Notes under the pieces: generated by a model
The model's database searches: none
Seen by the model: the letters and a program-made list of their open reading frames with translations, nothing else
What the model was told of the DNA's origin: nothing
Program-made: the position numbers and the translations under genes
Shown here: piece by piece, positions 1,161 to 9,468 of the stretch
Position numbering within the stretch: position 1 is the stretch's first letter
Layout of the letters: every line of letters begins with the position of its first letter
Origin: an uncultured Eubacteriales bacterium
GTDB lineage: Bacteria > Pseudomonadota > Alphaproteobacteria > RF32 > CAG-239
Assembly: GCA_963632615.1 (NCBI GenBank)
Contig: CAVGVF010000001.1
Coordinates: 7,993-71,992 of the forward strand
DNA: 64,000 bases
Direction: 5' to 3'

Positions 1161-1821
1161 ACTCCTCGATAATTTTGATATTACCGTAAGAGTACGCTTT
1201 TGTCTTTGGCTCCGTCTTAGGCTCAATAAAAGCATCGACTTTAGCCTCAACTTTTTCTTTAGCAGAGCTGAAAGCTGACTTGAGATCAGCCGTAACTTTT
1301 GCTAAAGGATTCTGTTTGCTTGCAGCAACAGTTTGTTGCAGCCCATGATTTTCTACAAAATCAACAGGTGCTTTTTCCAACGCCTCATATCGCTCAAAAT
1401 TTCGGAGCGAACTCTTGATAACGGTATGAACAACGTTTTGCCCCTTCAAAACATCTGCCCAAAGAAGCGACTTGGCAACATAGGTTTTACCATTGGTAAA
1501 AAACACTTTGATACCGTCTGCCGCAACAGAAGTTGAATCTACCTGAAGCAACTCGCGGATATACTCTTTGTTAGAAACAACACCTTTAAACGATGCCGCT
1601 TCATCCTTACCCTGGTAAGAAACAATTTTGTAATCGCCAACACCGTTGTCTTTGAGAGCCAGATACTGCGCAGCGGTAATGTCGGCAGAAGAACCGTCAA
1701 CACCATAAGCCATCAAAGCACGACCTTTTACATAGCTTTTTACCGGCACAAAAGTCTGAGCGCTTACTGCAACACAAACAAAAACAAACACTGCAAAAAA
1801 CAAAAACTTCTTCATAATCAA
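1159..1821 (-). CDS. secreted hypothetical protein (signal peptide)
   Basis: 220-aa ORF with a hydrophobic N-terminus (KKFLFFAVFVFVCVAVSAQ). No motif recognised. Confidence 0.6.
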   Translation of the reverse strand: MIMKKFLFFAVFVFVCVAVSAQTFVPVKSYVKGRALMAYGVDGSSADITAAQYLALKDNGVGDYKIVSYQGKDEAASFKGVVSNKEYIRELLQVDSTSVAADGIKVFFTNGKTYVAKSLLWADVLKGQNVVHTVIKSSLRNFERYEALEKAPVDFVENHGLQQTVAASKQNPLAKVTADLKSAFSSAKEKVEAKVDAFIEPKTEPKTKAYSYGNIKIIEE

Positions 1822-2037: not shown

Positions 2038-3414
2038 TTATAACTTTTTCCACGTTGTACCGGTTGGTCCGTCTTCCAATACGATTCCGCGTTCTTTCAG
2101 CTCGTTGCGGATAGCATCGGCAGCCGCCCAATCCTTATTCTTTTTAGCTTCGGCGCGTTTGGCGATTAAAGCTTCTATTTCGGCATCATCCTCAGCAGCC
2201 GCACCTTTAAACCAGCTTTCAGCGTCATTATACAAAAGTCCCAGCATATAAGCATTTGCCATAAGCTCAGATTTGTATTTTATACGCTCTTCTCTGGTTT
2301 CAGCTTTGTTCAAATTGCCTAAAGTTTCATGCAGATAAGACAGAGCCAGCGGAGTATTCAAGTCATCCGACAGCGCCGCTATCAGTTTTTCGCTCGGTTC
2401 GACTTTTTCTGCCGGAATATCAGCGTTTTTCAGCAGCGCGTTATAGAATTTATCCAAAATCGCCTTAGCTTGCTCCAAACCCTCAAACGTAAAGTTAAAC
2501 GGCTGATGATAGTGAGTGGTTAAAAATAGCAGGCGCAAAGCTTCGGCCGGATATTTTGCCAATATTTCATCAACAGTATAGAAATTGCCCAAAGATTTAG
2601 ACATTTTAACGCCGTTAATCATCAGCATGCCGGTATGCACCCAATAATGGGCAAAGTGTGTTCCCGGATAGGCGCAGCAAGACTGCGCGCATTCATTTTC
2701 ATGGTGCGGAAAGATTAAATCTGAACCGCCGCCGTGAATATCAAAGTCATTGCCCAGCAGTTTAGAACTCATAGCCGAGCATTCCAAGTGCCACCCCGGA
2801 CGGCCGTAGCCCCAAGGGCTGTCCCACCCCGGCTGATCGGCGTCTGACGGCTTCCACAAAATAAAGTCGGCCGGATTCTTTTTATAATCGGCAACTTCAA
2901 CCCGCGCTCCGGCAACCATTTCTTTCATCGAGCGTCCGGATAAAAAGCCGTAATTCGGCATAGAATCCACATCAAACAAAACTTGCTTATCGGCTATATA
3001 AGCATGGCCGTTTTTCAGCAGCAATTCCACCAATTTAATCATCTCCGGAATATATTCTGTAGCGCGCGGACGGTAATTCGGCGACAGAACATTCAGTTTT
3101 TTCATATCGTCAATATACCAGTTATACGTCTGCTCCGTAATTTCACGGATAGATTTTCCGGTTTCTTTATGTTTGTTTAAAATTTTATCATCCACATCGG
3201 TAATGTTAGAAACATAGGTAACATGATCTTTGCCGTAAACATAGCACAGCAAACGATACAAAACATCATACACCACCGGAGTTTTGGCATTGCCTAAATG
3301 CGCTTTGTCATAAACAGTCGGCCCGCAGACATACATACGCACATTGTTTGCGTCAATCGGAACAAATTTATCCTTACGCTGTTTTAAGGTATTATGCAAA
3401 TATATTTCCGGCAT
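2038..3414 (-). CDS. cysS: cysteine--tRNA ligase
   Basis: 458 aa. Class I aaRS HIGH-type motif (AHLGNA) and KMSKS are present, with typical CysRS strings (CGPTVYD, WHLECS). Confidence 0.93.
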   Translation of the reverse strand: MPEIYLHNTLKQRKDKFVPIDANNVRMYVCGPTVYDKAHLGNAKTPVVYDVLYRLLCYVYGKDHVTYVSNITDVDDKILNKHKETGKSIREITEQTYNWYIDDMKKLNVLSPNYRPRATEYIPEMIKLVELLLKNGHAYIADKQVLFDVDSMPNYGFLSGRSMKEMVAGARVEVADYKKNPADFILWKPSDADQPGWDSPWGYGRPGWHLECSAMSSKLLGNDFDIHGGGSDLIFPHHENECAQSCCAYPGTHFAHYWVHTGMLMINGVKMSKSLGNFYTVDEILAKYPAEALRLLFLTTHYHQPFNFTFEGLEQAKAILDKFYNALLKNADIPAEKVEPSEKLIAALSDDLNTPLALSYLHETLGNLNKAETREERIKYKSELMANAYMLGLLYNDAESWFKGAAAEDDAEIEALIAKRAEAKKNKDWAAADAIRNELKERGIVLEDGPTGTTWKKL

Positions 3415-3438
3415 TTTATCCTCCTGTTATTTCTAAAT

Positions 3439-4761
3439 TTAAGCTTTTTGCCCCAGCAAACGCTTTTTAGCTTTTTCATAGCCGATTAGCGGCAGCAGAG
3501 TTTTGAGTTCCGGTCCGTCATCCAGAGCTGTCAAGGCTTTGCGCAGCGGATGAAACAGCTCACGTCCTTTTTTGCCGCTCTGAGCTTTTAGAGCAGACAG
3601 CCATTCATTAAACGTGTTTTCATTCCAAGGCTCTGCCGGCAGCAATTCCGCCGCCAAATCGGTTAAGGCCTTATCTTCAATAATCGGCGAAACTTCTTTA
3701 TAGCAGATATCTTCCCAAACCTTAACATCTTCCACCACGTTCAAATTAGCACGCACATCATTCCAAAATGTTTCATCGGCAGCAATGCGGTCTTTTACCA
3801 AACTATATGGCATAGAGCGCACAACTTTGGTATTGAAATGCTTTAACTCTTCTTCATCAAACTTAGGCTGAGAACGTCCCAATTTGCTAAAATCCAAAGA
3901 TTCTGCCAGTTCATCCAAAGAATAATACGGCTCTATAGCATCAGAAGTGCCGAGTTTTGCTAAAAATGAACAAATCGCCATCGCTTCTACGCCCTCTGCT
4001 TTTAGCTCGCGCACGCCCAAGCTGCCCAAACGTTTAGAAAGCTTGCCCTCAGTACCGGTCAGCAGCGGCAAGTGGGCAAAAGTCGGAACTTTGCCGCCGA
4101 TAGCTTCAAACATCTGAATCTGCGAGGCAGTGTTGGTGGTATGGTCTTCGCCGCGCACAATGTGCGTAATGCCGAAATCGCTGTCATCAATGCAGGACGG
4201 CAGATGATACAGATAGCTGCCGTCTTCGCGGATAATAATCGGGTCGCTGAGCTTTTCAGCCTCATAGCGGCAATGTCCGCGTACAATATCATCCCACTCA
4301 ATCACGCCGTCCAGCAGCTTAAAACGATAGTGCGGCTTGCGCCCCTCGGCTTTGAATTTTGCCAAATCTTCGGCAGTATAATGTAGCGCCTGACGGTCGT
4401 ATACAGGAGCCAAACCCTTTGCCATAGCGCGTTTACGCTTAATTTCCAGCTCTTCCGGAGTTTCATAGCAAGCATAAATTCTGCCCTCTGCCATAAGCTT
4501 TTCTTTAACTTCATTATAGCGGTCAAAACGAGCCGACTGACGGGCTTCTTCGCTCCAGTTAAAGCCCAGCCATACCAAGCTTTCACGCATGGCATCCTCA
4601 TATTCTTTTTTGGAGCGGAGGCGGTCGGTATCATCAATTCTCAGCATAAATTTACCGCCGAGTTTTTTAGCCAGCAGCCAGTTAAACAAAGCTGTTCTGG
4701 TGTTGCCTATGTGCATAAAGCCGGTTGGGCTTGGTGCGAATCTTACTTTTATTTCAGACAT
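3439..4761 (-). CDS. gltX: glutamate--tRNA ligase (short form)
   Basis: 440 aa. The N-terminus RFAPSPTGFMHIGNTRTALFNW carries the HIGH-type motif, and a KLSKR motif is present. Confidence 0.9.
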   Translation of the reverse strand: MSEIKVRFAPSPTGFMHIGNTRTALFNWLLAKKLGGKFMLRIDDTDRLRSKKEYEDAMRESLVWLGFNWSEEARQSARFDRYNEVKEKLMAEGRIYACYETPEELEIKRKRAMAKGLAPVYDRQALHYTAEDLAKFKAEGRKPHYRFKLLDGVIEWDDIVRGHCRYEAEKLSDPIIIREDGSYLYHLPSCIDDSDFGITHIVRGEDHTTNTASQIQMFEAIGGKVPTFAHLPLLTGTEGKLSKRLGSLGVRELKAEGVEAMAICSFLAKLGTSDAIEPYYSLDELAESLDFSKLGRSQPKFDEEELKHFNTKVVRSMPYSLVKDRIAADETFWNDVRANLNVVEDVKVWEDICYKEVSPIIEDKALTDLAAELLPAEPWNENTFNEWLSALKAQSGKKGRELFHPLRKALTALDDGPELKTLLPLIGYEKAKKRLLGQKA

Positions 4762-4837: not shown

Positions 4838-5506
4838 CTAAAATGCTGAGCCTTTTAACTTTTCTGCATTTTTTTGCTGATTATCGGCGGTAACTGTCTG
4901 CAAATCTTCCAAAAACCATTCCATATCTTCATCGTTGTCGTTATATATCATTTTATAAAAGCGATCTCGGAAAGCCAAAAGCAAGCTGCTTTCGCCTATT
5001 TTCAAGTCCTGCACCTGAATATTTACGCCGTTTTTGACAAGCACAAACAAAACATTGAAGCCGGCCTGCACGCTTTGTTCCGTTTCAACCGGTTCTTTCA
5101 GTTTTATATTGCACCAAACGTCTGCGCCTTTTTTGGACGGCAGAACTTTAGATACGGAAAATGATATATCGCCCTCGCCCAAATTAAGCGGATAGCCTTT
5201 GTACAAACTGTTTACATATTGCTTAAACAGCGGCACATATTGCTCCTGCTGCTCTGCAGTCATTTTCTTCCAATATTTGCCAACGGCAAATTTAGCGGCG
5301 TGATCTAAATCTATATCTTTATAAAAAATCTCATCCAGCGCTTTATATTTGCGTTCCAAATTTGTATCCGCCAAAATCTGCAAAATTCGGTTTCCTTTGG
5401 AATTTGCCCAGTTTTCAGCCTCTTTTACACCGATTTGCGCCGCCCAACTATTTGTTTCGGCAAATAAAACGGCAAAAAATATCATAAGTCTTAACAAAAC
5501 TTTCAT
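4838..5506 (-). CDS. MlaC/Ttg2D-like periplasmic phospholipid-binding protein
   Basis: 222 aa with a signal peptide. The FAVGKYWKKMTAEQQEQYVPLFKQY region is typical of toluene-tolerance Ttg2D/MlaC family proteins. Confidence 0.6.
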   Translation of the reverse strand: MKVLLRLMIFFAVLFAETNSWAAQIGVKEAENWANSKGNRILQILADTNLERKYKALDEIFYKDIDLDHAAKFAVGKYWKKMTAEQQEQYVPLFKQYVNSLYKGYPLNLGEGDISFSVSKVLPSKKGADVWCNIKLKEPVETEQSVQAGFNVLFVLVKNGVNIQVQDLKIGESSLLLAFRDRFYKMIYNDNDEDMEWFLEDLQTVTADNQQKNAEKLKGSAF

Positions 5507-5570
5507 CTTTATTTTGTATCCTGCCTGTTACATATTACAGATACAGATTAACACAAAAATGGTTAATAAG

Positions 5571-6656
5571 ATGAAAAAATTTTTAAAATTAGGTATGTTA
5601 TCGCTTTTTTTGCCGGCATTGGCACAAGCTCAGCAGGTTCCGCAGTTTCAAGAGCCGGTTTATTATGAAGAACCGGTTTACTATCATCCTCTGGCACCGC
5701 AGGTTCAGCAACAGCGCAGCCCGATAGAACAAATTGTCTGGAACAACAAAGTCCGCTGCGGCAGCGATATGAGCGTCAAAACCTATGCTCATAAAGAAGA
5801 CGGCGTATGGAGCGGCATTGATGCTGATTTATGCCGCATAATCGCCCAGGCTCTGTTAGGCGACAACCGAAAAATCCAGATGGTAAACGTATCGCAGAAA
5901 AATATGTCGCGCGCTTTGGATGAAGACCGAATTGATGTTATGCTGAGCGGCGGTTCGTATTCCGCCAAAACCGAAACTTCGCGCCAAGCCTTGAGCGCCG
6001 GCTTTCTCTATTATGACCACCAGATGCTGATGGTGCATAAAGATGATCCGGAAGATTTGAAAGAATATAAAGGCAAAAAAATCTGCATTTCTACCGATTC
6101 TGACTATTATAAAAATTTTGATGATTTTAACTGGAACAATGACTTAGGCATGCGCTATTTGACTTTTAACACTCTAAAAGAAGCTAAAGAAGCCTTTTTG
6201 CTGAACCGCTGCCAAATGATGACTGCCAGCGGATTGATGCTGCACGGCATTTTACAAGATTTGCCCGGCTCTAATGCCAAAGTTTTGCCGCAGCAAATTG
6301 CTCTGCATCCGGTATATGCCTATGTTCAACGCGATAACGCCGAATTGCGTCTGGCGTTAAAATGGATATTCAATGCACTGTTTTTGGCTGAAAAATATGA
6401 TATAAATGCTCAAAATTTAAGCTTTTTCACTTCCAATGATAATCCGGAAATCCGCAATCTGATGGGCGATAACGAGCAGCTGTGGACCGACCTGAAAGTA
6501 AAACCGGGCTGGCTGAAAGAAGTTGTTTCTTTATTCGGTAATTACCGCGATATTTTTGATAAAGATTTAGGAGAAGATTCGGAATATCATCTGCAGCGGG
6601 ATGAAGGCAAGCTGGTCAAAGACGGCGGCACCATCTACCCCCTGCCGTTTATGTAA
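5571..6656 (+). CDS. amino-acid ABC transporter substrate-binding protein (family 3, AapJ-like)
   Basis: The ORF-track start (5349) overlaps the opposite-strand gene. ATG 5571 gives the signal peptide MKKFLKLGMLSLFLPALAQA. The body resembles general L-amino-acid binding proteins. Confidence 0.6.
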   Translation: MKKFLKLGMLSLFLPALAQAQQVPQFQEPVYYEEPVYYHPLAPQVQQQRSPIEQIVWNNKVRCGSDMSVKTYAHKEDGVWSGIDADLCRIIAQALLGDNRKIQMVNVSQKNMSRALDEDRIDVMLSGGSYSAKTETSRQALSAGFLYYDHQMLMVHKDDPEDLKEYKGKKICISTDSDYYKNFDDFNWNNDLGMRYLTFNTLKEAKEAFLLNRCQMMTASGLMLHGILQDLPGSNAKVLPQQIALHPVYAYVQRDNAELRLALKWIFNALFLAEKYDINAQNLSFFTSNDNPEIRNLMGDNEQLWTDLKVKPGWLKEVVSLFGNYRDIFDKDLGEDSEYHLQRDEGKLVKDGGTIYPLPFM

Positions 6657-6698: not shown

Positions 6699-7637
6699 CT
6701 ATGACGCCTCATTTATAAAATCTTGAACCTCTTTTTTAGATTCGGCAACTTTATAAACGTATGTTGTTGTTCGCCCCACACGATTTGAAGCTGTATAATC
6801 CTTTTCCAACGCAGCATTCTGCAACTCTTTTATTAAAGACTTACTATTGCAGGTAATTTCTTTGCTTTCGCTGGAAAACTTCAGGCAAAGTTTAACATCT
6901 GATGTAACTTTGTCGGAAAAATGTATTTCTATCTGTTTATACTTTTCACCATTTCCGCAATTTTCCCAATCAAAATAGCAAGCATAAAAAGCTCCTTTCG
7001 GATTATGCACCCATACAATATTAAAATCGTGCCCGTCCAGTGCGGAACTCAAATAACTAAACCATTTTTCGGCACACCAAGTTTTTATTTCATTATCCTC
7101 ACAATTTTTTATCTGCCCTTCTATTTTATTAAGCCTGTTATAATAACTTTCAAAAATTAAATCACATTTACTGTTATCTTTCAGCAATTCTAACATATTT
7201 TTACGCCGCAAAGAACAGCAATCATTTTGCGGTAACATATTCTCATCCGGTGTTTTATAATCACGCACATAATCCATTGTTTTTAAATAACACACTTTAA
7301 TCTTTCTTCCTGAATACAATTTGTCATTTTTTAGAGCACTAACATATCTTGCAATCTGATTGCCATGCTCATTTGTATATGTTTTATCTTCAATAATTAA
7401 AAGATGAGAGACTGTAACAACTAACACATCAATATTTTTATATTGTTTCTTTACTTCACAAATTTCTTCATCTTTAGCAATTCCGCATTTTTCCAAGAAA
7501 GAATGAGCAATATCAAATTGTTGCGAATATTTATCTTTATATAAATTTCTTCCGAAAGTCAGCATATAACAAAGAAAAGCGTCTTGCGACAATTCACTTG
7601 TGGCATAATCAAAAATATTAGGCTGTTCAATCTCCAT
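6699..7637 (-). CDS. PD-(D/E)XK nuclease family protein
   Basis: D...(E/D)xK core (IDVLVV...LLIIEDKTYTNEHGNQ). A GGAG RBS lies 9 nt before ATG 7637. The gene is AT-rich relative to its flanks. Confidence 0.55.
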   Translation of the reverse strand: MEIEQPNIFDYATSELSQDAFLCYMLTFGRNLYKDKYSQQFDIAHSFLEKCGIAKDEEICEVKKQYKNIDVLVVTVSHLLIIEDKTYTNEHGNQIARYVSALKNDKLYSGRKIKVCYLKTMDYVRDYKTPDENMLPQNDCCSLRRKNMLELLKDNSKCDLIFESYYNRLNKIEGQIKNCEDNEIKTWCAEKWFSYLSSALDGHDFNIVWVHNPKGAFYACYFDWENCGNGEKYKQIEIHFSDKVTSDVKLCLKFSSESKEITCNSKSLIKELQNAALEKDYTASNRVGRTTTYVYKVAESKKEVQDFINEAS

Positions 7638-8142
7638 AGCTGTAATCTCCAATAAAAAAGTTTGTTTATAACTTTCAGAGCACAATCTCTGTCATATTTG
7701 AAAGAATAATAATGTAAATGCTAACTAAAGGCAATTCATTATTAAAACTATTCAGAATTTACTTAGCATAAAGTATCACTATCCCCAACTTTCAAACAGT
7801 TAAGCGAATAAGTGTGGACATTTAACAAAAAGAGGGCAAAAATATTGGTGTGGGGCGAAAAAAACAAAACCTAATGAGGCTTTTGAGGCTAATGAGGTTT
7901 AACTTAACCCGCATATAAAAAACATTGTAAATAGGTATTATCCAAAGGTTTAGGGATAAAAAAGGGAAAAAATTTATAAACAGGGAATTTAAATTTTTGA
8001 AAAATTTTTATAAAAATACAATCCTTAAAAAAATAAAGAAATTAAAAGACAAATTAAACACCGCAAACACGCTGTGTGCAACGATTTGAAAAAAACACTT
8101 GATTTCTGTATTTTTATATTATATAAGACTTAAAGATTTTAT

Positions 8143-8218
8143 AGGGGTATAGCTCAGTTGGTAGAGCATCGGTCTCCAAAACCGAGTGTCGTGAGTTCGA
8201 ATCTTACTGCCCCTGCCA
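8143..8218 (+). tRNA. trnW: tRNA-Trp (anticodon CCA)
   Basis: A 76-nt cloverleaf folds by hand: acceptor AGGGGTA/TGCCCCT, anticodon loop CTCCAAA, T-loop TTCGAAT, encoded CCA. Confidence 0.93.
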
Positions 8219-8607
8219 AAACAAAGCCGCCATTAGGGCGGTTTTTTTGTGGCATTCGGGGCTGTTGATGAGAACTCACGAAAGAGTGGTTCGACCACAA
8301 GCGAAAGGCGGACTTTTGGACACCGGTGAGCTTTGCGAATGAGCGCCGTGGCGGCGTAGCCAATCTTACTGCCCCTGCCAAAACAAAGCCGCCATTAGGG
8401 CGGTTTTTTTGTGGCATTCGGGGCTGTTGATGAGAACTCACGAAAGAGTGGTTCGACCACAAGCGAAAGGCGGACTTTTGGACACCGGTGAGCTTTGCGA
8501 ATGAGCGCCGTGGCGGCGTAGCCAATCTTACTGCCCCTGCCAAAACAAAACCGCCTTTAGGTCGGTTTTTTTTATGGCATTCGGGGCTGTTGATGAGAAC
8601 TCGGTTC
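8200..8607 (+). repeat. 2.5 tandem copies of a 162-bp unit, each led by the last 19 nt of tRNA-Trp
   Basis: Units start at 8200, 8362 and 8524 with AATCTTACTGCCCCTGCCA (T-loop A58 to CCA). Each continues with a terminator hairpin and a core of about 110 nt. Copies 1 and 2 read identical. Copy 3 is diverged in the terminator stem, has a 10-nt deletion and is truncated. Confidence 0.9.
8226..8248 (+). terminator. rho-independent terminator after tRNA-Trp
   Basis: CCGCC/GGCGG stem with loop ATTAG, followed by T7. Confidence 0.75.
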
Positions 8608-8616
8608 TTAAAATTC

Positions 8617-8757
8617 CTACTTTTTCAAGCTATCCATGACCGACTTAAAGGAAGTTAGAGCGGTTTGTAAATTATCTGCAATTTCAGCGGCTAAAATTTG
8701 CGGTTCAGGTAAATTTTCTAAACTTTCCAGACTTTCATCTTTTATCCAGCTACGGAA
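8617..8757 (-). pseudogene. remnant resembling the C-terminal tail of a type I R-M subunit (HsdM-like)
   Basis: The minus-strand translation FRSWIKDESLESLENLPEPQILAAEIADNLQTALTSFKSVMDSLKK* matches, from memory, the acidic C-terminal tail seen in type I methylase subunits. There is no start and no upstream body. Confidence 0.3.
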
Positions 8758-8834
8758 AATTATTTGGCATTGGCTTTTCCTGATTTTGCCTTAAGATAAT
8801 TCACAAAAGCGGAACATACAACGAGCATATATTT

Positions 8835-9095
8835 TTACATAACCATATCTTTCTGAAAATCGTTCAAATCGCATTTTTTAGTCCTTTTTACAGTTTTTTT
8901 AGCTTCTATAACTCCGCAGGCTTTGCCATCTACAAACAGCAAATAATCAGCTTCCGTGCCGTCGGCCATCAAAAATTCTCGGACAGCTACACCTAAACCG
9001 GCGGTTCGGTCAAAACTGTCTCGGTCTTGGATAATCCAGCCGGCTTGTAATAACAAATTATCAATTTTTTGTCTTGCGTTTTCTTCAGGTGTCAT
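8835..9095 (-). pseudogene. HsdR_N-type (type I restriction enzyme N-terminal nuclease domain) fragment
   Basis: The 86-aa ORF reads MTPEENARQKIDNLLLQAGW...ADYLLFVDGKACGVIEAKKT, with the D...EAK core. It ends right after the nuclease motif and has no helicase domain. Confidence 0.6.
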
Positions 9096-9257
9096 TTTTC
9101 GGTTCTGCCTTGTTCTTTTTTCTAAATTTTATTATTTTTCCAGAACATCAGCAAGCAAAAAAATGAATCCACCTTAATTATTTGTAAAAAAGTGAATAAA
9201 TTAAAAGGGATATTTCATAATGAATCCGTTTTCATGCTATTAAAATTTTGAAAAACA

Positions 9258-9461
9258 TCACCTTTCAATAGGGGCGTTAATCTGCTCGTCCATCATTAAA
9301 CCGTCTTTTACTTTTTCTGCCATCAAGAACAGGCCTTTACCGGCAGACTTGCTTTCCCATAACTTTCCAATAGCCAACTTCTTTTTCGTATCAGCGTAAT
9401 CAATCAGATGCTTGCTTTTGTATTCAACAACCAAAATCCGCCCATCACTCAGCATTGCCAC
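9258..9461 (-). pseudogene. C-terminal fragment of a restriction-endonuclease-like (ExK) domain protein
   Basis: 67-aa ORF with DGRILVVEYKSKHL...GKLW. It looks like the distal half of a PD-(D/E)XK domain without the rest of the protein. Confidence 0.4.
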
Positions 9462-9468
9462 GAAATTT

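What the first reader, a model, noticed from the sequence alone, without database searches (positions are those of the whole stretch)
8200..8607. Gene-less 162-bp units, each starting with the tRNA-Trp 3' end, are stacked in tandem behind tRNA-Trp
AATCTTACTGCCCCTGCCA (tRNA position 58 in the T-loop through the encoded CCA) occurs at 8200 (genuine), 8362 and 8524. Each copy is followed by the same terminator hairpin and a core of about 110 nt. Units 1 and 2 read as identical. Unit 3 has a mutated terminator stem, a 10-nt deletion, and ends near 8607.

A duplicated tRNA 3' end is the classic scar of tyrosine-integrase recombination at a tRNA attB. Here the cargo between att copies is only 143 bp and contains no gene, and it has been accreted at least twice. 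That resembles the cis-mobilizable (CIME-like) att-flanked elements described in streptococci, but miniature.

The 129-aa ORF on the minus strand is an artefact of the repeat.
Basis: partly seen in the sequence, partly recalled or inferred. Interest (0 to 1): 0.6.

Follow-up and report, generated by a model that had tools for sequence, protein, structure and literature searches.

The report
RtT-like repeat units trailing tRNA-Trp
The repeats behind tRNA-Trp are real, but they are probably not the scar of an integrated element: they are two and a half copies of a small folded non-coding module that sits behind about a third of this gut bacterium's tRNA genes and has the same layout as the old, still unexplained RtT repeats behind E. 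coli tRNA-Tyr.

Summary
AATCTTACTGCCCCTGCCA (tRNA-Trp positions 58-76) occurs at 8200, 8362 and 8524. Units 1 and 2 are 100% identical, and unit 3 is truncated at 8607.

The locus is not unique. Twelve of the genome's 41 tRNA genes carry the same kind of unit. Each unit runs: terminator, diverged antisense copy of that tRNA's 3' half, short sense T-arm piece ending TTCGA, GC-rich core with covarying hairpins, then a copy of the tRNA's own last ~19 nt.

The Trp-type core occurs in 39 of 41 sampled genomes of the family. In species-representative genomes it lies 65-80 nt behind tRNA genes of 18 species. The copy starts at position 58 in 39 of 46 cases.

The E. coli tyrT 178-bp RtT repeats have the same anatomy, although Rfam RF00391 does not score these units.

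The genome has no reverse transcriptase and only two island-type integrases, so the integrase-scar (CIME) reading is poorly supported.

Best reading: an RtT-like tRNA-trailer RNA module, with the array built by unequal recombination. Its function, and whether it is mobile, remain open. No read data could be consulted.

The parts
8086..8114 (+). promoter-like site in front of tRNA-Trp (TTGAAA-17-TATTTT); the only one in 7900-8800
   Evidence: a consensus match only
8143..8218 (+). tRNA-Trp(CCA) gene with encoded CCA; its last 19 nt (8200-8218, positions 58-76) are the sequence that is repeated
   Evidence: (68.3 bits)
8219..8249 (+). unit 1: intrinsic-terminator hairpin (A-tract, GCCGCC-ATTA-GGGCGG, T7)
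8250..8279 (+). unit 1: antisense, diverged copy of tRNA-Trp positions ~47-76 (TGGCA-ttc-GGGGC-t-GT-tg-GAT-ga-GAACTCAC); TC is changed to GA opposite positions 57-58
   Evidence: read; coordinates; the same TC-to-GA change is seen in E. coli RtT
8286..8294 (+). unit 1: sense T-arm piece S (GTGGTTCGA), ending at the equivalent of A58; forms a hairpin with the 3' part of the antisense piece across the GAAAGA turn (8280-8285)
   Evidence: (helix 2, 88% paired)
8295..8361 (+). unit 1: GC-rich core (type A), with hairpin 1 (here degenerate: GGCGGAC-TTTT-GGACACC), hairpin 2 (GAGC-TTT-GCGAA) and the tail ..GGCGGCGTAGCC
8362..8380 (+). first copy of tRNA-Trp positions 58-76; closes unit 1
8381..8542 (+). 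unit 2: terminator 8381-8411, antisense piece 8412-8441, S 8448-8456, core 8457-8523, copy 8524-8542; the 162-bp period is 100% identical to the preceding period
8543..8607 (+). truncated unit 3: mutated terminator 8543-8574; antisense piece plus GGTTC 8575-8607 (10-nt deletion); then unrelated flank
8154..8543 (-). 129-aa ORF created by the repeat; not a gene
12451..12527 (-). tRNA-Pro(TGG), a second host of the same element family inside the window
12149..12450 (-). tRNA-Pro array: terminator 12408-12450, antisense piece + S 12362-12407, type-A core 12270-12361 (74% identical to the Trp core), copy of the tRNA-Pro 3' end 12257-12269, second degenerate unit 12161-12256, and a second copy 12149-12160

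Best explanation
The stretch 8219-8607 is an array of two identical units plus one truncated unit of an RtT-like tRNA-trailer module. This is a roughly 160-nt non-coding element encoded on the tRNA-sense strand directly behind a tRNA gene.

A unit consists of five parts:
- an intrinsic terminator;
- an antisense, deliberately imperfect copy of the host tRNA's 3' half;
- a short sense copy of the T-stem 5' strand and T-loop up to A58;
- a GC-rich core with two conserved hairpins rich in G-A mismatches and GNRA loops;
- a copy of the tRNA's positions 58-76 including CCA, again followed by a terminator.

Proposed working (inferred):
- The unit is transcribed by read-through from the tRNA promoter.
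- It folds into a closed multi-branch structure. The antisense piece pairs with the sense piece and, more loosely, with the terminal copy.
- Because it ends like the tRNA (acceptor 3' strand plus CCA plus the same terminator), it is trimmed by the tRNA 3'-end machinery to a stable small RNA, as is annotated for E. coli rttR.
- That RNA would act as a mimic or decoy of the cognate tRNA's 3' end. The actual function is unknown, as it is for RtT.

The array itself grew and is kept uniform by unequal homologous recombination or gene conversion between the repeated 19-nt-plus-terminator-plus-antisense segments. The sense piece and terminal copy are kept matched to the neighbouring tRNA by gene conversion.

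Shown: the anatomy, family membership, covariation, strand, position-58 junction and phylogenetic spread. Inferred: transcription, processing and function.
For: (1) Genome-wide family. Twelve of 41 tRNA genes have a copy of their own 3' end 140-185 nt downstream, with the same internal order of parts. A profile of the core hits only these places plus one tRNA-Gly fragment.

(2) Conservation. Covariance model R1 finds the core in 39 of 41 sampled genomes of the family (22 of 23 genera, 1-19 copies each). It also finds it in two other alphaproteobacterial families, again behind tRNA-Ser and tRNA-Glu. Between this genome and its relative G012, only the tRNA plus units align (91%); the flanks do not.

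(3) Stereotyped geometry. In species-representative genomes, 76 of 94 pattern hits have a same-strand tRNA within 800 nt upstream, and 64 lie 65-80 nt behind it, across 18 tRNA species. The terminal copy starts at position 58 in 39 of 46 units and is the full 19 nt in 29.

(4) Structure.
- Hairpin 1 shows compensatory changes (GC:10/AU:9 and AU:12/GC:4).
- On the 20-sequence alignment, 90.7% of cells are paired against 29-44% when partners are slid, with covariation 0.279 against 0.150 (0 of 500 shuffles).
- G-U pairs and GNRA loops lie on the tRNA-sense strand.
- Minimum-free-energy folds pair the sense piece with the antisense piece in 40 of 46 units.

(5) Same plan as E. coli RtT. This comprises the 19-nt tRNA-Tyr copy from position 58, the antisense piece GGGGAAGGATGAGAAGCTTCGA with the same TC-to-GA change, the sense piece AAGGTTCGA|C, and a GC-rich core and tail. 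The annotated rttR RNA ends exactly at the CCA of the copy. The Rfam consensus structure pairs the antisense piece with the copy. In the 2-kb E. coli locus, four of the five best R1 matches fall, in register, on RtT-type cores: the three units and a fourth in the tyrT-tyrV spacer (E 0.007-0.3).

(6) Units 1 and 2 are identical, and relatives have 0-2.5 units at tRNA-Trp. This fits recombinational expansion and contraction.

(7) No promoter-like site lies inside the units.
Against: - No expression data.
- Rfam RF00391 does not score any unit, and a sequence profile of the core does not find E. coli RtT. Common descent with RtT is therefore not demonstrated; only the same plan and faint similarity are.
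- Hairpin 1 of the Trp units in this very genome is degenerate (4 of 7 pairs), so this particular array may be decaying.
- Occupied tRNAs differ between species of one genus, and orphans and truncated copies exist. This looks more like a dispensable or selfish element than a needed RNA.
- The sharp position-58 junction could reflect a site-specific DNA event rather than an RNA constraint.
- Compensatory changes would also be expected for an element recognised as folded single-stranded DNA.
Confidence: 0.55

Rival explanations
1. The units are a selfish, non-autonomous mobile element that homes to tRNA genes. It inserts at T-loop position 58, or at the 3' end, using an enzyme supplied in trans or by the host. 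One route would be as folded single-stranded DNA, in which the antisense piece pairs with the sense piece and terminal copy to rebuild a duplex mimic of the tRNA gene's T-arm and acceptor region, by analogy with CTX-phage attP or integron attC. Another route would be homology-facilitated illegitimate recombination, using the conserved tRNA gene as an anchor after DNA uptake. Arrays would then arise by repeated insertion.
For: - At least 21 different tRNA species are hosts, and occupancy is patchy among congeners.
- The G018 tRNA-Trp array holds two different core subtypes.
- The Pro-CGG and Ser-GGA cores of this genome are nearly identical over about 40 nt although the tRNAs are unrelated.
- Orphans sit next to tRNA fragments.
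- There is a filled/empty pair: G019 has a 165-bp unit between the tRNA-Trp CCA and the flank CTCAAGATAAAG, and G023 has none.
- The junction at position 58 is sharp.
- Distal array ends are variable and often truncated near the hairpin, as one-sided illegitimate joins would give.
- An island carries a whole unit inside its end repeats.
Against: - No candidate enzyme was found. There is no reverse transcriptase. There are only Xer-size recombinases and two island integrases. There is one IS200-type TnpA, whose flanking hairpins do not resemble the unit.
- The arms match the local tRNA, which a cut-and-paste element coming from another tRNA would not give.
- The antisense piece sometimes keeps an older identity: the Ser-GGA unit has a Ser-CGA-like antisense piece. 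This fits slow vertical evolution with gene conversion.
- The core is conserved across a whole family and is present in a 0.9-Mb reduced genome.
- The 'empty' site can equally be a precise deletion between the 19-nt repeats.
Confidence: 0.25
2. Each unit is a miniature att-flanked remnant (CIME-like), left by a tyrosine-integrase element that targets the tRNA 3' end, accreted twice and mobilisable in trans.
For: - A direct repeat of a tRNA 3' end starting in the T-loop is the classical signature of such integration (established knowledge; repeats).
- The genome does hold a tRNA-Gly island with an integrase, and its end repeats include a unit.
- tRNA-Trp is an island hot spot in relatives, with 41-nt 5' fragments in G023 and G017.
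Against: - Twelve tRNA hosts face only two island integrases, neither near tRNA-Trp.
- The one clear island uses the anticodon loop, not position 58.
- The core is found nowhere next to integrase genes or inside larger elements.
- The antisense tRNA piece, the covarying hairpins, the G-U pairs and the strand bias are unexplained by integrase arm sites.
- The E. coli counterpart is annotated as a small RNA (rttR) of a tRNA locus (cites the experimental paper).
Confidence: 0.08
3. Nothing but local replication slippage or unequal crossing-over duplicated the tRNA 3' end together with its trailer. The trailer has no identity of its own.
For: Units 1 and 2 are 100% identical and head to tail. Copy number varies between relatives.
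Against: - The trailer's core and architecture recur behind 11 other tRNA genes here and in most genomes of the family, with conserved structure.
- Slippage explains the copy number, not the unit.
Confidence: 0.05

Closest known systems
RtT RNA / the 178-bp repeats (3.14 copies) behind E. coli tyrT-tyrV (gene rttR, Rfam RF00391; Egan & Landy 1978 and Bosl & Kersten 1991 from my own knowledge, the latter cited in PMC3318445)
   Same: - Lies directly behind a tRNA gene on the same strand, tandemly repeated.
- Each unit ends in the last 19 nt (positions 58-76) of that tRNA.
- Contains an antisense T-arm/acceptor piece with the same TC-to-GA change opposite positions 57-58.
- Contains a sense piece ending ..GGTTCGA|C, then a GC-rich core with a short hairpin and a GCGAAGCG..AG tail.
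- The Rfam consensus structure pairs the antisense piece with the terminal copy.

   Different: - No score on RF00391, and no profile hit the other way.
- The host is tRNA-Trp, plus 11 other tRNAs in one genome, rather than tRNA-Tyr only.
- Every unit carries its own intrinsic terminator, where E. coli has a 58-nt spacer.
- The antisense piece here extends to pair with the CCA.
- An extra conserved hairpin 1 is present.
- The lineage is gut/rumen Alphaproteobacteria.
att scars and cis-mobilisable elements (CIMEs) of tyrosine-integrase islands at tRNA genes (streptococcal CIMEs; T-loop or anticodon-loop sublocations, Williams 2002; own knowledge)
   Same: Gene-less DNA bounded by direct repeats of a tRNA 3' end that start in the T-loop. 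Tandem accretion is possible.
   Different: - No cognate integrase is present.
- The unit is about 160 bp and holds an antisense tRNA copy and covarying hairpins.
- It is present behind a third of all tRNA genes.
- It is conserved over a bacterial family.
sRNAs cut from tRNA 3' external transcribed spacers (e.g. 3'ETS-leuZ of E. coli; own knowledge)
   Same: A functional RNA derived from the trailer of a tRNA transcript by the tRNA-processing machinery. This is the proposed route here.
   Different: Those RNAs are not repeated. They carry no sense or antisense copies of the tRNA, and they act as sponges by short seed pairing.
Small hairpin repeats recognised as folded single strands (REP/REPIN with RAYT, IS200/IS605-derived PATEs, integron attC, CTX-phage attP; own knowledge)
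   Same: Short, non-coding and hairpin-rich, with compensatory changes. Present in multiple copies per genome.
   Different: - These units are strictly tied to the 3' end of tRNA genes in one orientation.
- Their arms are copied from the host tRNA.
- They do not resemble the hairpins flanking the single IS200 TnpA gene.

Membership tests
RtT RNA (Rfam RF00391) / tyrT-type trailer repeats | Lies directly downstream of a tRNA gene on the same strand, as tandem units | tested here: met
RtT RNA (Rfam RF00391) / tyrT-type trailer repeats | Each unit ends in a copy of the last 19 nt (58-76, with CCA) of the upstream tRNA | tested here: met
   Window. E. coli. Family-wide, the copy starts at position 58 in 39 of 46 units.
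RtT RNA (Rfam RF00391) / tyrT-type trailer repeats | An upstream segment complementary to the tRNA T-arm/acceptor 3' strand pairs with the terminal copy (outer helix of the Rfam consensus) | tested here: met
   In the window unit's minimum-free-energy fold the outer helix is TGGCA/TGCCA, GGGGC/GCCCC and GAT/ATC. The inner three pairs are 98% kept. In the wider family the outer helix appears in only 21 of 46 folds.
RtT RNA (Rfam RF00391) / tyrT-type trailer repeats | Scores at or above the family's gathering threshold (45 bits) | tested here: not met
   No RF00391 match up to E=10 on 7900-8900, or up to E=1 on ten other loci. E. coli units score 134-137 bits.
RtT RNA (Rfam RF00391) / tyrT-type trailer repeats | Released from the tRNA transcript as a stable RNA ending at the CCA of the copy | not testable with these tools
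rttR is annotated that way in E. coli.
tyrosine-integrase att scar / CIME | Direct repeats of the attachment core (tRNA 3' end) flank the element | tested here: met
tyrosine-integrase att scar / CIME | A cognate integrase, or a related full-size element with the same ends, exists in the genome or lineage | tested here: not met
   There are four PF00589 hits: two of Xer size, one at tRNA-Gln and one at tRNA-Gly. The core is never inside a larger element.
tyrosine-integrase att scar / CIME | Excised circles or empty sites exist in populations | tested here: inconclusive
   No reads were available, and two metagenome scans gave 0 hits. One filled/empty pair between species exists (G019 vs G023), but it can be a deletion between the repeats.
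IS200/IS605-derived miniature element (PATE) or REPIN | Hairpins like those flanking a Y1 transposase gene of the genome; insertion next to a fixed short target | tested here: not met
   The genome has a single IS200-type TnpA. Its flanks show no similarity to the unit's hairpins. A fixed junction after TTCGA does exist, but it lies inside tRNA-derived arms.
tRNA-primed retroelement | A reverse transcriptase is encoded | tested here: not met
   PF00078 gives 0 hits in a genome estimated to be 100% complete.
hammerhead or other Rfam ribozyme/sRNA families | Match to a curated covariance model | tested here: not met
   Only tRNA passes. All other matches are far below gathering scores.

The most novel reading that the evidence does not exclude
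RtT would not be an enterobacterial oddity. It would be one member of a widespread, unnamed class of modules that attach behind tRNA genes of nearly every specificity. Such modules are built by splitting a copy of the tRNA's 3' half at T-loop position 58 around a small structured core and clamping it with an antisense copy.

In the gut/rumen alphaproteobacterial family studied here they occupy up to a third of the tRNA genes. They would be either self-propagating elements that home to position 58 by a mechanism not yet known, or a family of tRNA-end-mimic RNAs with one paralogue per tRNA.
Probability: 0.4. Interest if true: 0.8.

Novelty: new variant of a known kind. Interest (0 to 1): 0.62.

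Why it matters
The 178-bp repeats behind E. coli tyrT have been known since 1978, and their RNA (RtT) since 1991, without an accepted function or origin. They have been treated as a one-locus curiosity.

In this bacterial family the same design is used behind at least 21 different tRNA species. There are hundreds of natural sequence variants, a fixed junction at T-loop position 58, and conserved hairpins. That turns an anecdote into a comparative data set. It defines which parts are constrained: the antisense:sense hairpin, hairpins 1 and 2, and the 19-nt end. It gives clear predictions for processing and for mobility. It also warns annotators that duplicated tRNA 3' ends are not always integrase scars.

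If the units prove to be mobile, they would be a new kind of tRNA-targeting element without a known enzyme. If they are RNAs, they would be a new class of tRNA-end mimics.

Tried and rejected
- Hammerhead-like reading of GATGAG..CGAAAG: rejected. The core positions do not fit and Rfam gives no hit.
- All-Rfam scans of the Trp locus and ten other loci: only tRNA passes.
- Single-sequence folding of the 143-nt spacer: not distinguishable from shuffles (z -0.65 on the + strand, -0.81 on the - strand). Structure only became clear from the alignment.
- Sequence profile of the core against the E. coli tyrT locus: no hit. The covariance model with filters off gave only weak, though in-register, hits.
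- Reverse-transcriptase model (tRNA-primed copying that stops at position 58): no RT gene.
- Y1/HUH model: one IS200 TnpA with unrelated flanks.
- RNAalifold on the MAFFT alignment proposed that the sense piece pairs with the terminal copy to form a T-stem around the core. Single-sequence folds prefer the antisense:sense hairpin in 40 of 46 units and never the T-stem. I keep it only as a possible alternative fold.
- Hairpin 2 could not be counted by column because MAFFT misaligns its variable loop. Its covariation (AGCC/GGCT, GGCC/GGCC, TGCC/GGCA, AATC/GATT, CAGC/GCTG, CGCC/GGCG) is read by eye.
Two exact-pattern scans of metagenome contigs (flank, and unit-specific hairpin) found nothing.
- Literature searches for a description of the wider class found none. 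Bosl & Kersten 1991 is not held.

Full report
**Observation**

tRNA-Trp(CCA) lies at 8143-8218 on the + strand. Tandem Repeats Finder reports 8200-8602 with period 162, 2.5 copies and 97% matches. The 19-mer AATCTTACTGCCCCTGCCA (tRNA positions 58-76) is at 8200, 8362 and 8524. The two full periods are identical.

The third unit keeps a mutated terminator and the antisense piece, lacks 10 nt, and stops at GGTTC, 8607. The 129-aa minus-strand ORF has no credible family match.

**Anatomy of a unit** (read; coordinates)

After the tRNA's CCA the parts come in this order:
- T: an intrinsic-terminator hairpin with a T run (8219-8249).
- A: an antisense, imperfect copy of the tRNA's own positions ~47-76. 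It begins TGG, the complement of CCA (8250-8279).
- A purine-rich turn (8280-8285).
- S: a sense copy of the T-stem 5' strand and the T-loop through A58, ...GGTTCGA (8286-8294).
- A 67-nt GC-rich core (8295-8361).
- The copy of positions 58-76 (8362-8380).

The core therefore looks inserted after A58 of a partial tRNA copy, and A is the complement of both halves.

**The locus is one of many**

A scan of all 41 tRNA genes of the 1.66-Mb genome shows that 12 have a copy of their own 3' end 140-185 nt downstream, always with the order T-A-S-core-copy. The hosts are:
- Trp
- Pro-TGG (inside this window, 12149-12527, minus strand)
- Pro-CGG
- Ser-GGA (three units)
- Ser-CGA
- Arg-ACG
- Gly-GCC
- Gly-CCC
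- Glu-TTC
- Glu-CTC
- Thr-GGT
- Leu-CAA (three units)

Eight of these loci share the Trp-type core (type A). Leu-CAA and Glu-CTC share a second core, and Gly-CCC and Thr-GGT differ again. A profile of the type-A core hits nothing else in the genome except a copy next to a tRNA-Gly 3' fragment at the far end of an integrase-bearing island.

Three more tRNA genes (Met twice, Ser-GCT) carry T-A(-S) remnants. Two contigs end 36 nt after a tRNA, so 12 is a lower bound.

**Spread**

Within the genus, tRNA-Trp has 0 to 2.5 units:
- Two in G012 (93% identical to this locus), G001 and G002; at least two in G013, where the contig ends in the second unit.
- One plus a truncated second in G015.
- One in G019, G003, G007 and G009.
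- Remnants in G004 and G008.
- None where tRNA-Trp sits before secE-nusG.

The G018 array holds two different core subtypes. G019 and G023 form a filled/empty pair with the same flank.

Covariance model R1 of the core finds it in 39 of 41 sampled genomes of the family, with 1-19 copies. In a 301-genome sample of the class it finds the core only in the family and in two other families. There it again lies behind tRNA-Ser-GGA, tRNA-Ser-CGA and tRNA-Glu-CTC.

A pattern scan of one genome per species returned at least 119 stretches. Nearly all are from uncultured gut or rumen Alphaproteobacteria. Of 94 hits, 76 have a same-strand tRNA within 800 nt upstream, and 64 lie 65-80 nt behind it, across 18 tRNA species. 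The terminal copy begins at position 58 in 39 of 46 units and is the full 19 nt in 29.

Occupied tRNAs differ among congeners, and orphans occur beside tRNA fragments.

**Structure**

- Hairpin 1 (GGCrGAC-GNRA-GTAyGCC, with a conserved G-A mismatch) shows compensatory changes.
- Hairpin 2 has at least six different complementary stems, read.
- On a 20-unit alignment, the A:S hairpin, hairpin 1 and the inner outer-helix pairs are 90.7% paired, against 29-44% with slid partners. Covariation exceeds all 500 shuffles.
- G-U pairs, G-A mismatches and GNRA loops are on the tRNA-sense strand. The relevant molecule is therefore the + strand, most simply RNA.
- Minimum-free-energy folds pair S with A in 40 of 46 units. 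The window's own unit folds into a closed multi-branch structure of -44.9 kcal/mol whose outer helix joins A to the terminal copy.
- Hairpin 1 of the Trp units in this genome is itself degenerate.

**Comparison with what is known**

I fetched the E. coli K-12 tyrT-tyrV locus. Its 178-bp units have the same parts:
- AATCCTTCCCCCACCACCA, positions 58-76 of tRNA-Tyr.
- An antisense piece GGGGAAGGATGAGAAGCTTCGA with the same TC-to-GA change opposite positions 57-58.
- The sense piece AAGGTTCGA|C.
- A GC-rich core with the hairpin GTTGCCGCAGGCAAC and a GCGAAGCG..GAGT tail.

The annotated rttR RNA ends exactly at the CCA of the copy. Rfam RF00391 matches the three E. coli units (134-137 bits), and its consensus structure pairs the antisense piece with the copy.

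RF00391 does not match the units of this genome, and a sequence profile of the type-A core does not find RtT. With filters off, four of the five best R1 matches in the 2-kb E. coli locus fall in register on RtT-type cores: the three RtT units and a fourth diverged one in the tyrT-tyrV spacer (E 0.007-0.3). So this has the same plan with faint similarity, but it is not a member of the curated family. Full-text searches found no description of the wider class.

**Tests of mechanism**

- Tyrosine recombinases: four in total. Two are of Xer size, and two belong to islands at tRNA-Gln and tRNA-Gly.
- Reverse transcriptase: none.
- Y1 transposase: one IS200-type gene, whose flanks do not resemble the units.
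- Promoter-like sites inside the units: none.
- Between this genome and G012, only the tRNA and the units align (91%), whereas both flanks differ.
- S and the copy match the local tRNA, but A can lag. The Ser-GGA unit has a Ser-CGA-like A. This points to gene conversion from the adjacent tRNA rather than arms made at insertion.

**Verdict**

The repeat is a short array of RtT-like tRNA-trailer modules. The array's copy number is best explained by unequal recombination between the repeated segments.

I favour (0.55) a structured RNA read through from the tRNA promoter and trimmed at its tRNA-like end. Its function is unknown; it may be a mimic of the tRNA's 3' end. A selfish element homing to position 58 (0.25) is not excluded and need not be exclusive of the RNA reading. 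The integrase-scar (CIME) reading (0.08) and pure slippage (0.05) explain too little.

Earlier AI notes of this scan reach the same RtT-like reading for other genomes. I read them after deriving it, and I count them as leads only.

Noticed in passing
window 12149-12527 (-): tRNA-Pro(TGG) has its own array: one type-A unit, and a second unit with a short, different core. Partial copies of the tRNA-Pro 3' end lie at 12257-12269 and 12149-12160. A 14-nt x2 tandem repeat follows at 12122-12149.
   Followed up: partly
window 8608-12148: The stretch between the two convergent tRNA arrays looks like variable cargo. It holds a type I restriction HSDR_N fragment (8835-9095, -), two ORFs without family, and an ankyrin-repeat protein (10719-11960, -). 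The close relative G012 has a different flank after its tRNA-Trp array.
   Followed up: partly
window 6699-7685 (-): A PD-(D/E)XK (PDDEXK_4) nuclease-like ORF and AT-rich DNA lie between the solute-binding-protein gene (5349-6656) and tRNA-Trp. In G012 the end of that gene is only about 100 nt from tRNA-Trp, so this looks like an insertion upstream of the tRNA.
   Followed up: no
own genome C46:2060-3263 and C28:4002-4220 (outside the window): An island with a tyrosine integrase sits at tRNA-Gly(GCC). Its two end repeats each comprise a tRNA-Gly 3' part (from the anticodon loop on C28) plus a complete unit, about 215 bp in all. Islands can therefore carry these units along.
   Followed up: partly
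own genome C28:~11170-11317, C29:~3400-3512, C100:~2461-2540: tRNA-Met (twice) and tRNA-Ser(GCT) are followed by a terminator plus the antisense piece (plus the sense piece behind the two tRNA-Met genes), but no core and no copy. Many arrays, including 8543-8607, end in the same kind of truncated unit.
   Followed up: partly
L045 (E. coli NC_000913.3) 1381-1460 (-): The spacer between tyrT and tyrV contains a fourth, diverged RtT-like core. It is the best match of model R1 in that locus (14.1 bits) and was not reported by the Rfam scan of that stretch.
   Followed up: no
own genome C23 and C41 contig ends: Contigs stop 36 nt after tRNA-Lys(CTT) and tRNA-Ser(TGA). In congeners these tRNAs carry units, so the assembly probably breaks inside repeat arrays and the count of 12 occupied tRNAs is a minimum.
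   Followed up: no
L145, L173, L159: Pattern hits occur in contigs labelled Ruminococcus gnavus, Clostridia and Bryobacterales. The first lies behind a tRNA-Lys(CTT) like the alphaproteobacterial copies, so it is probably mis-binned. The Bryobacterales hit has no tRNA nearby.
   Followed up: no
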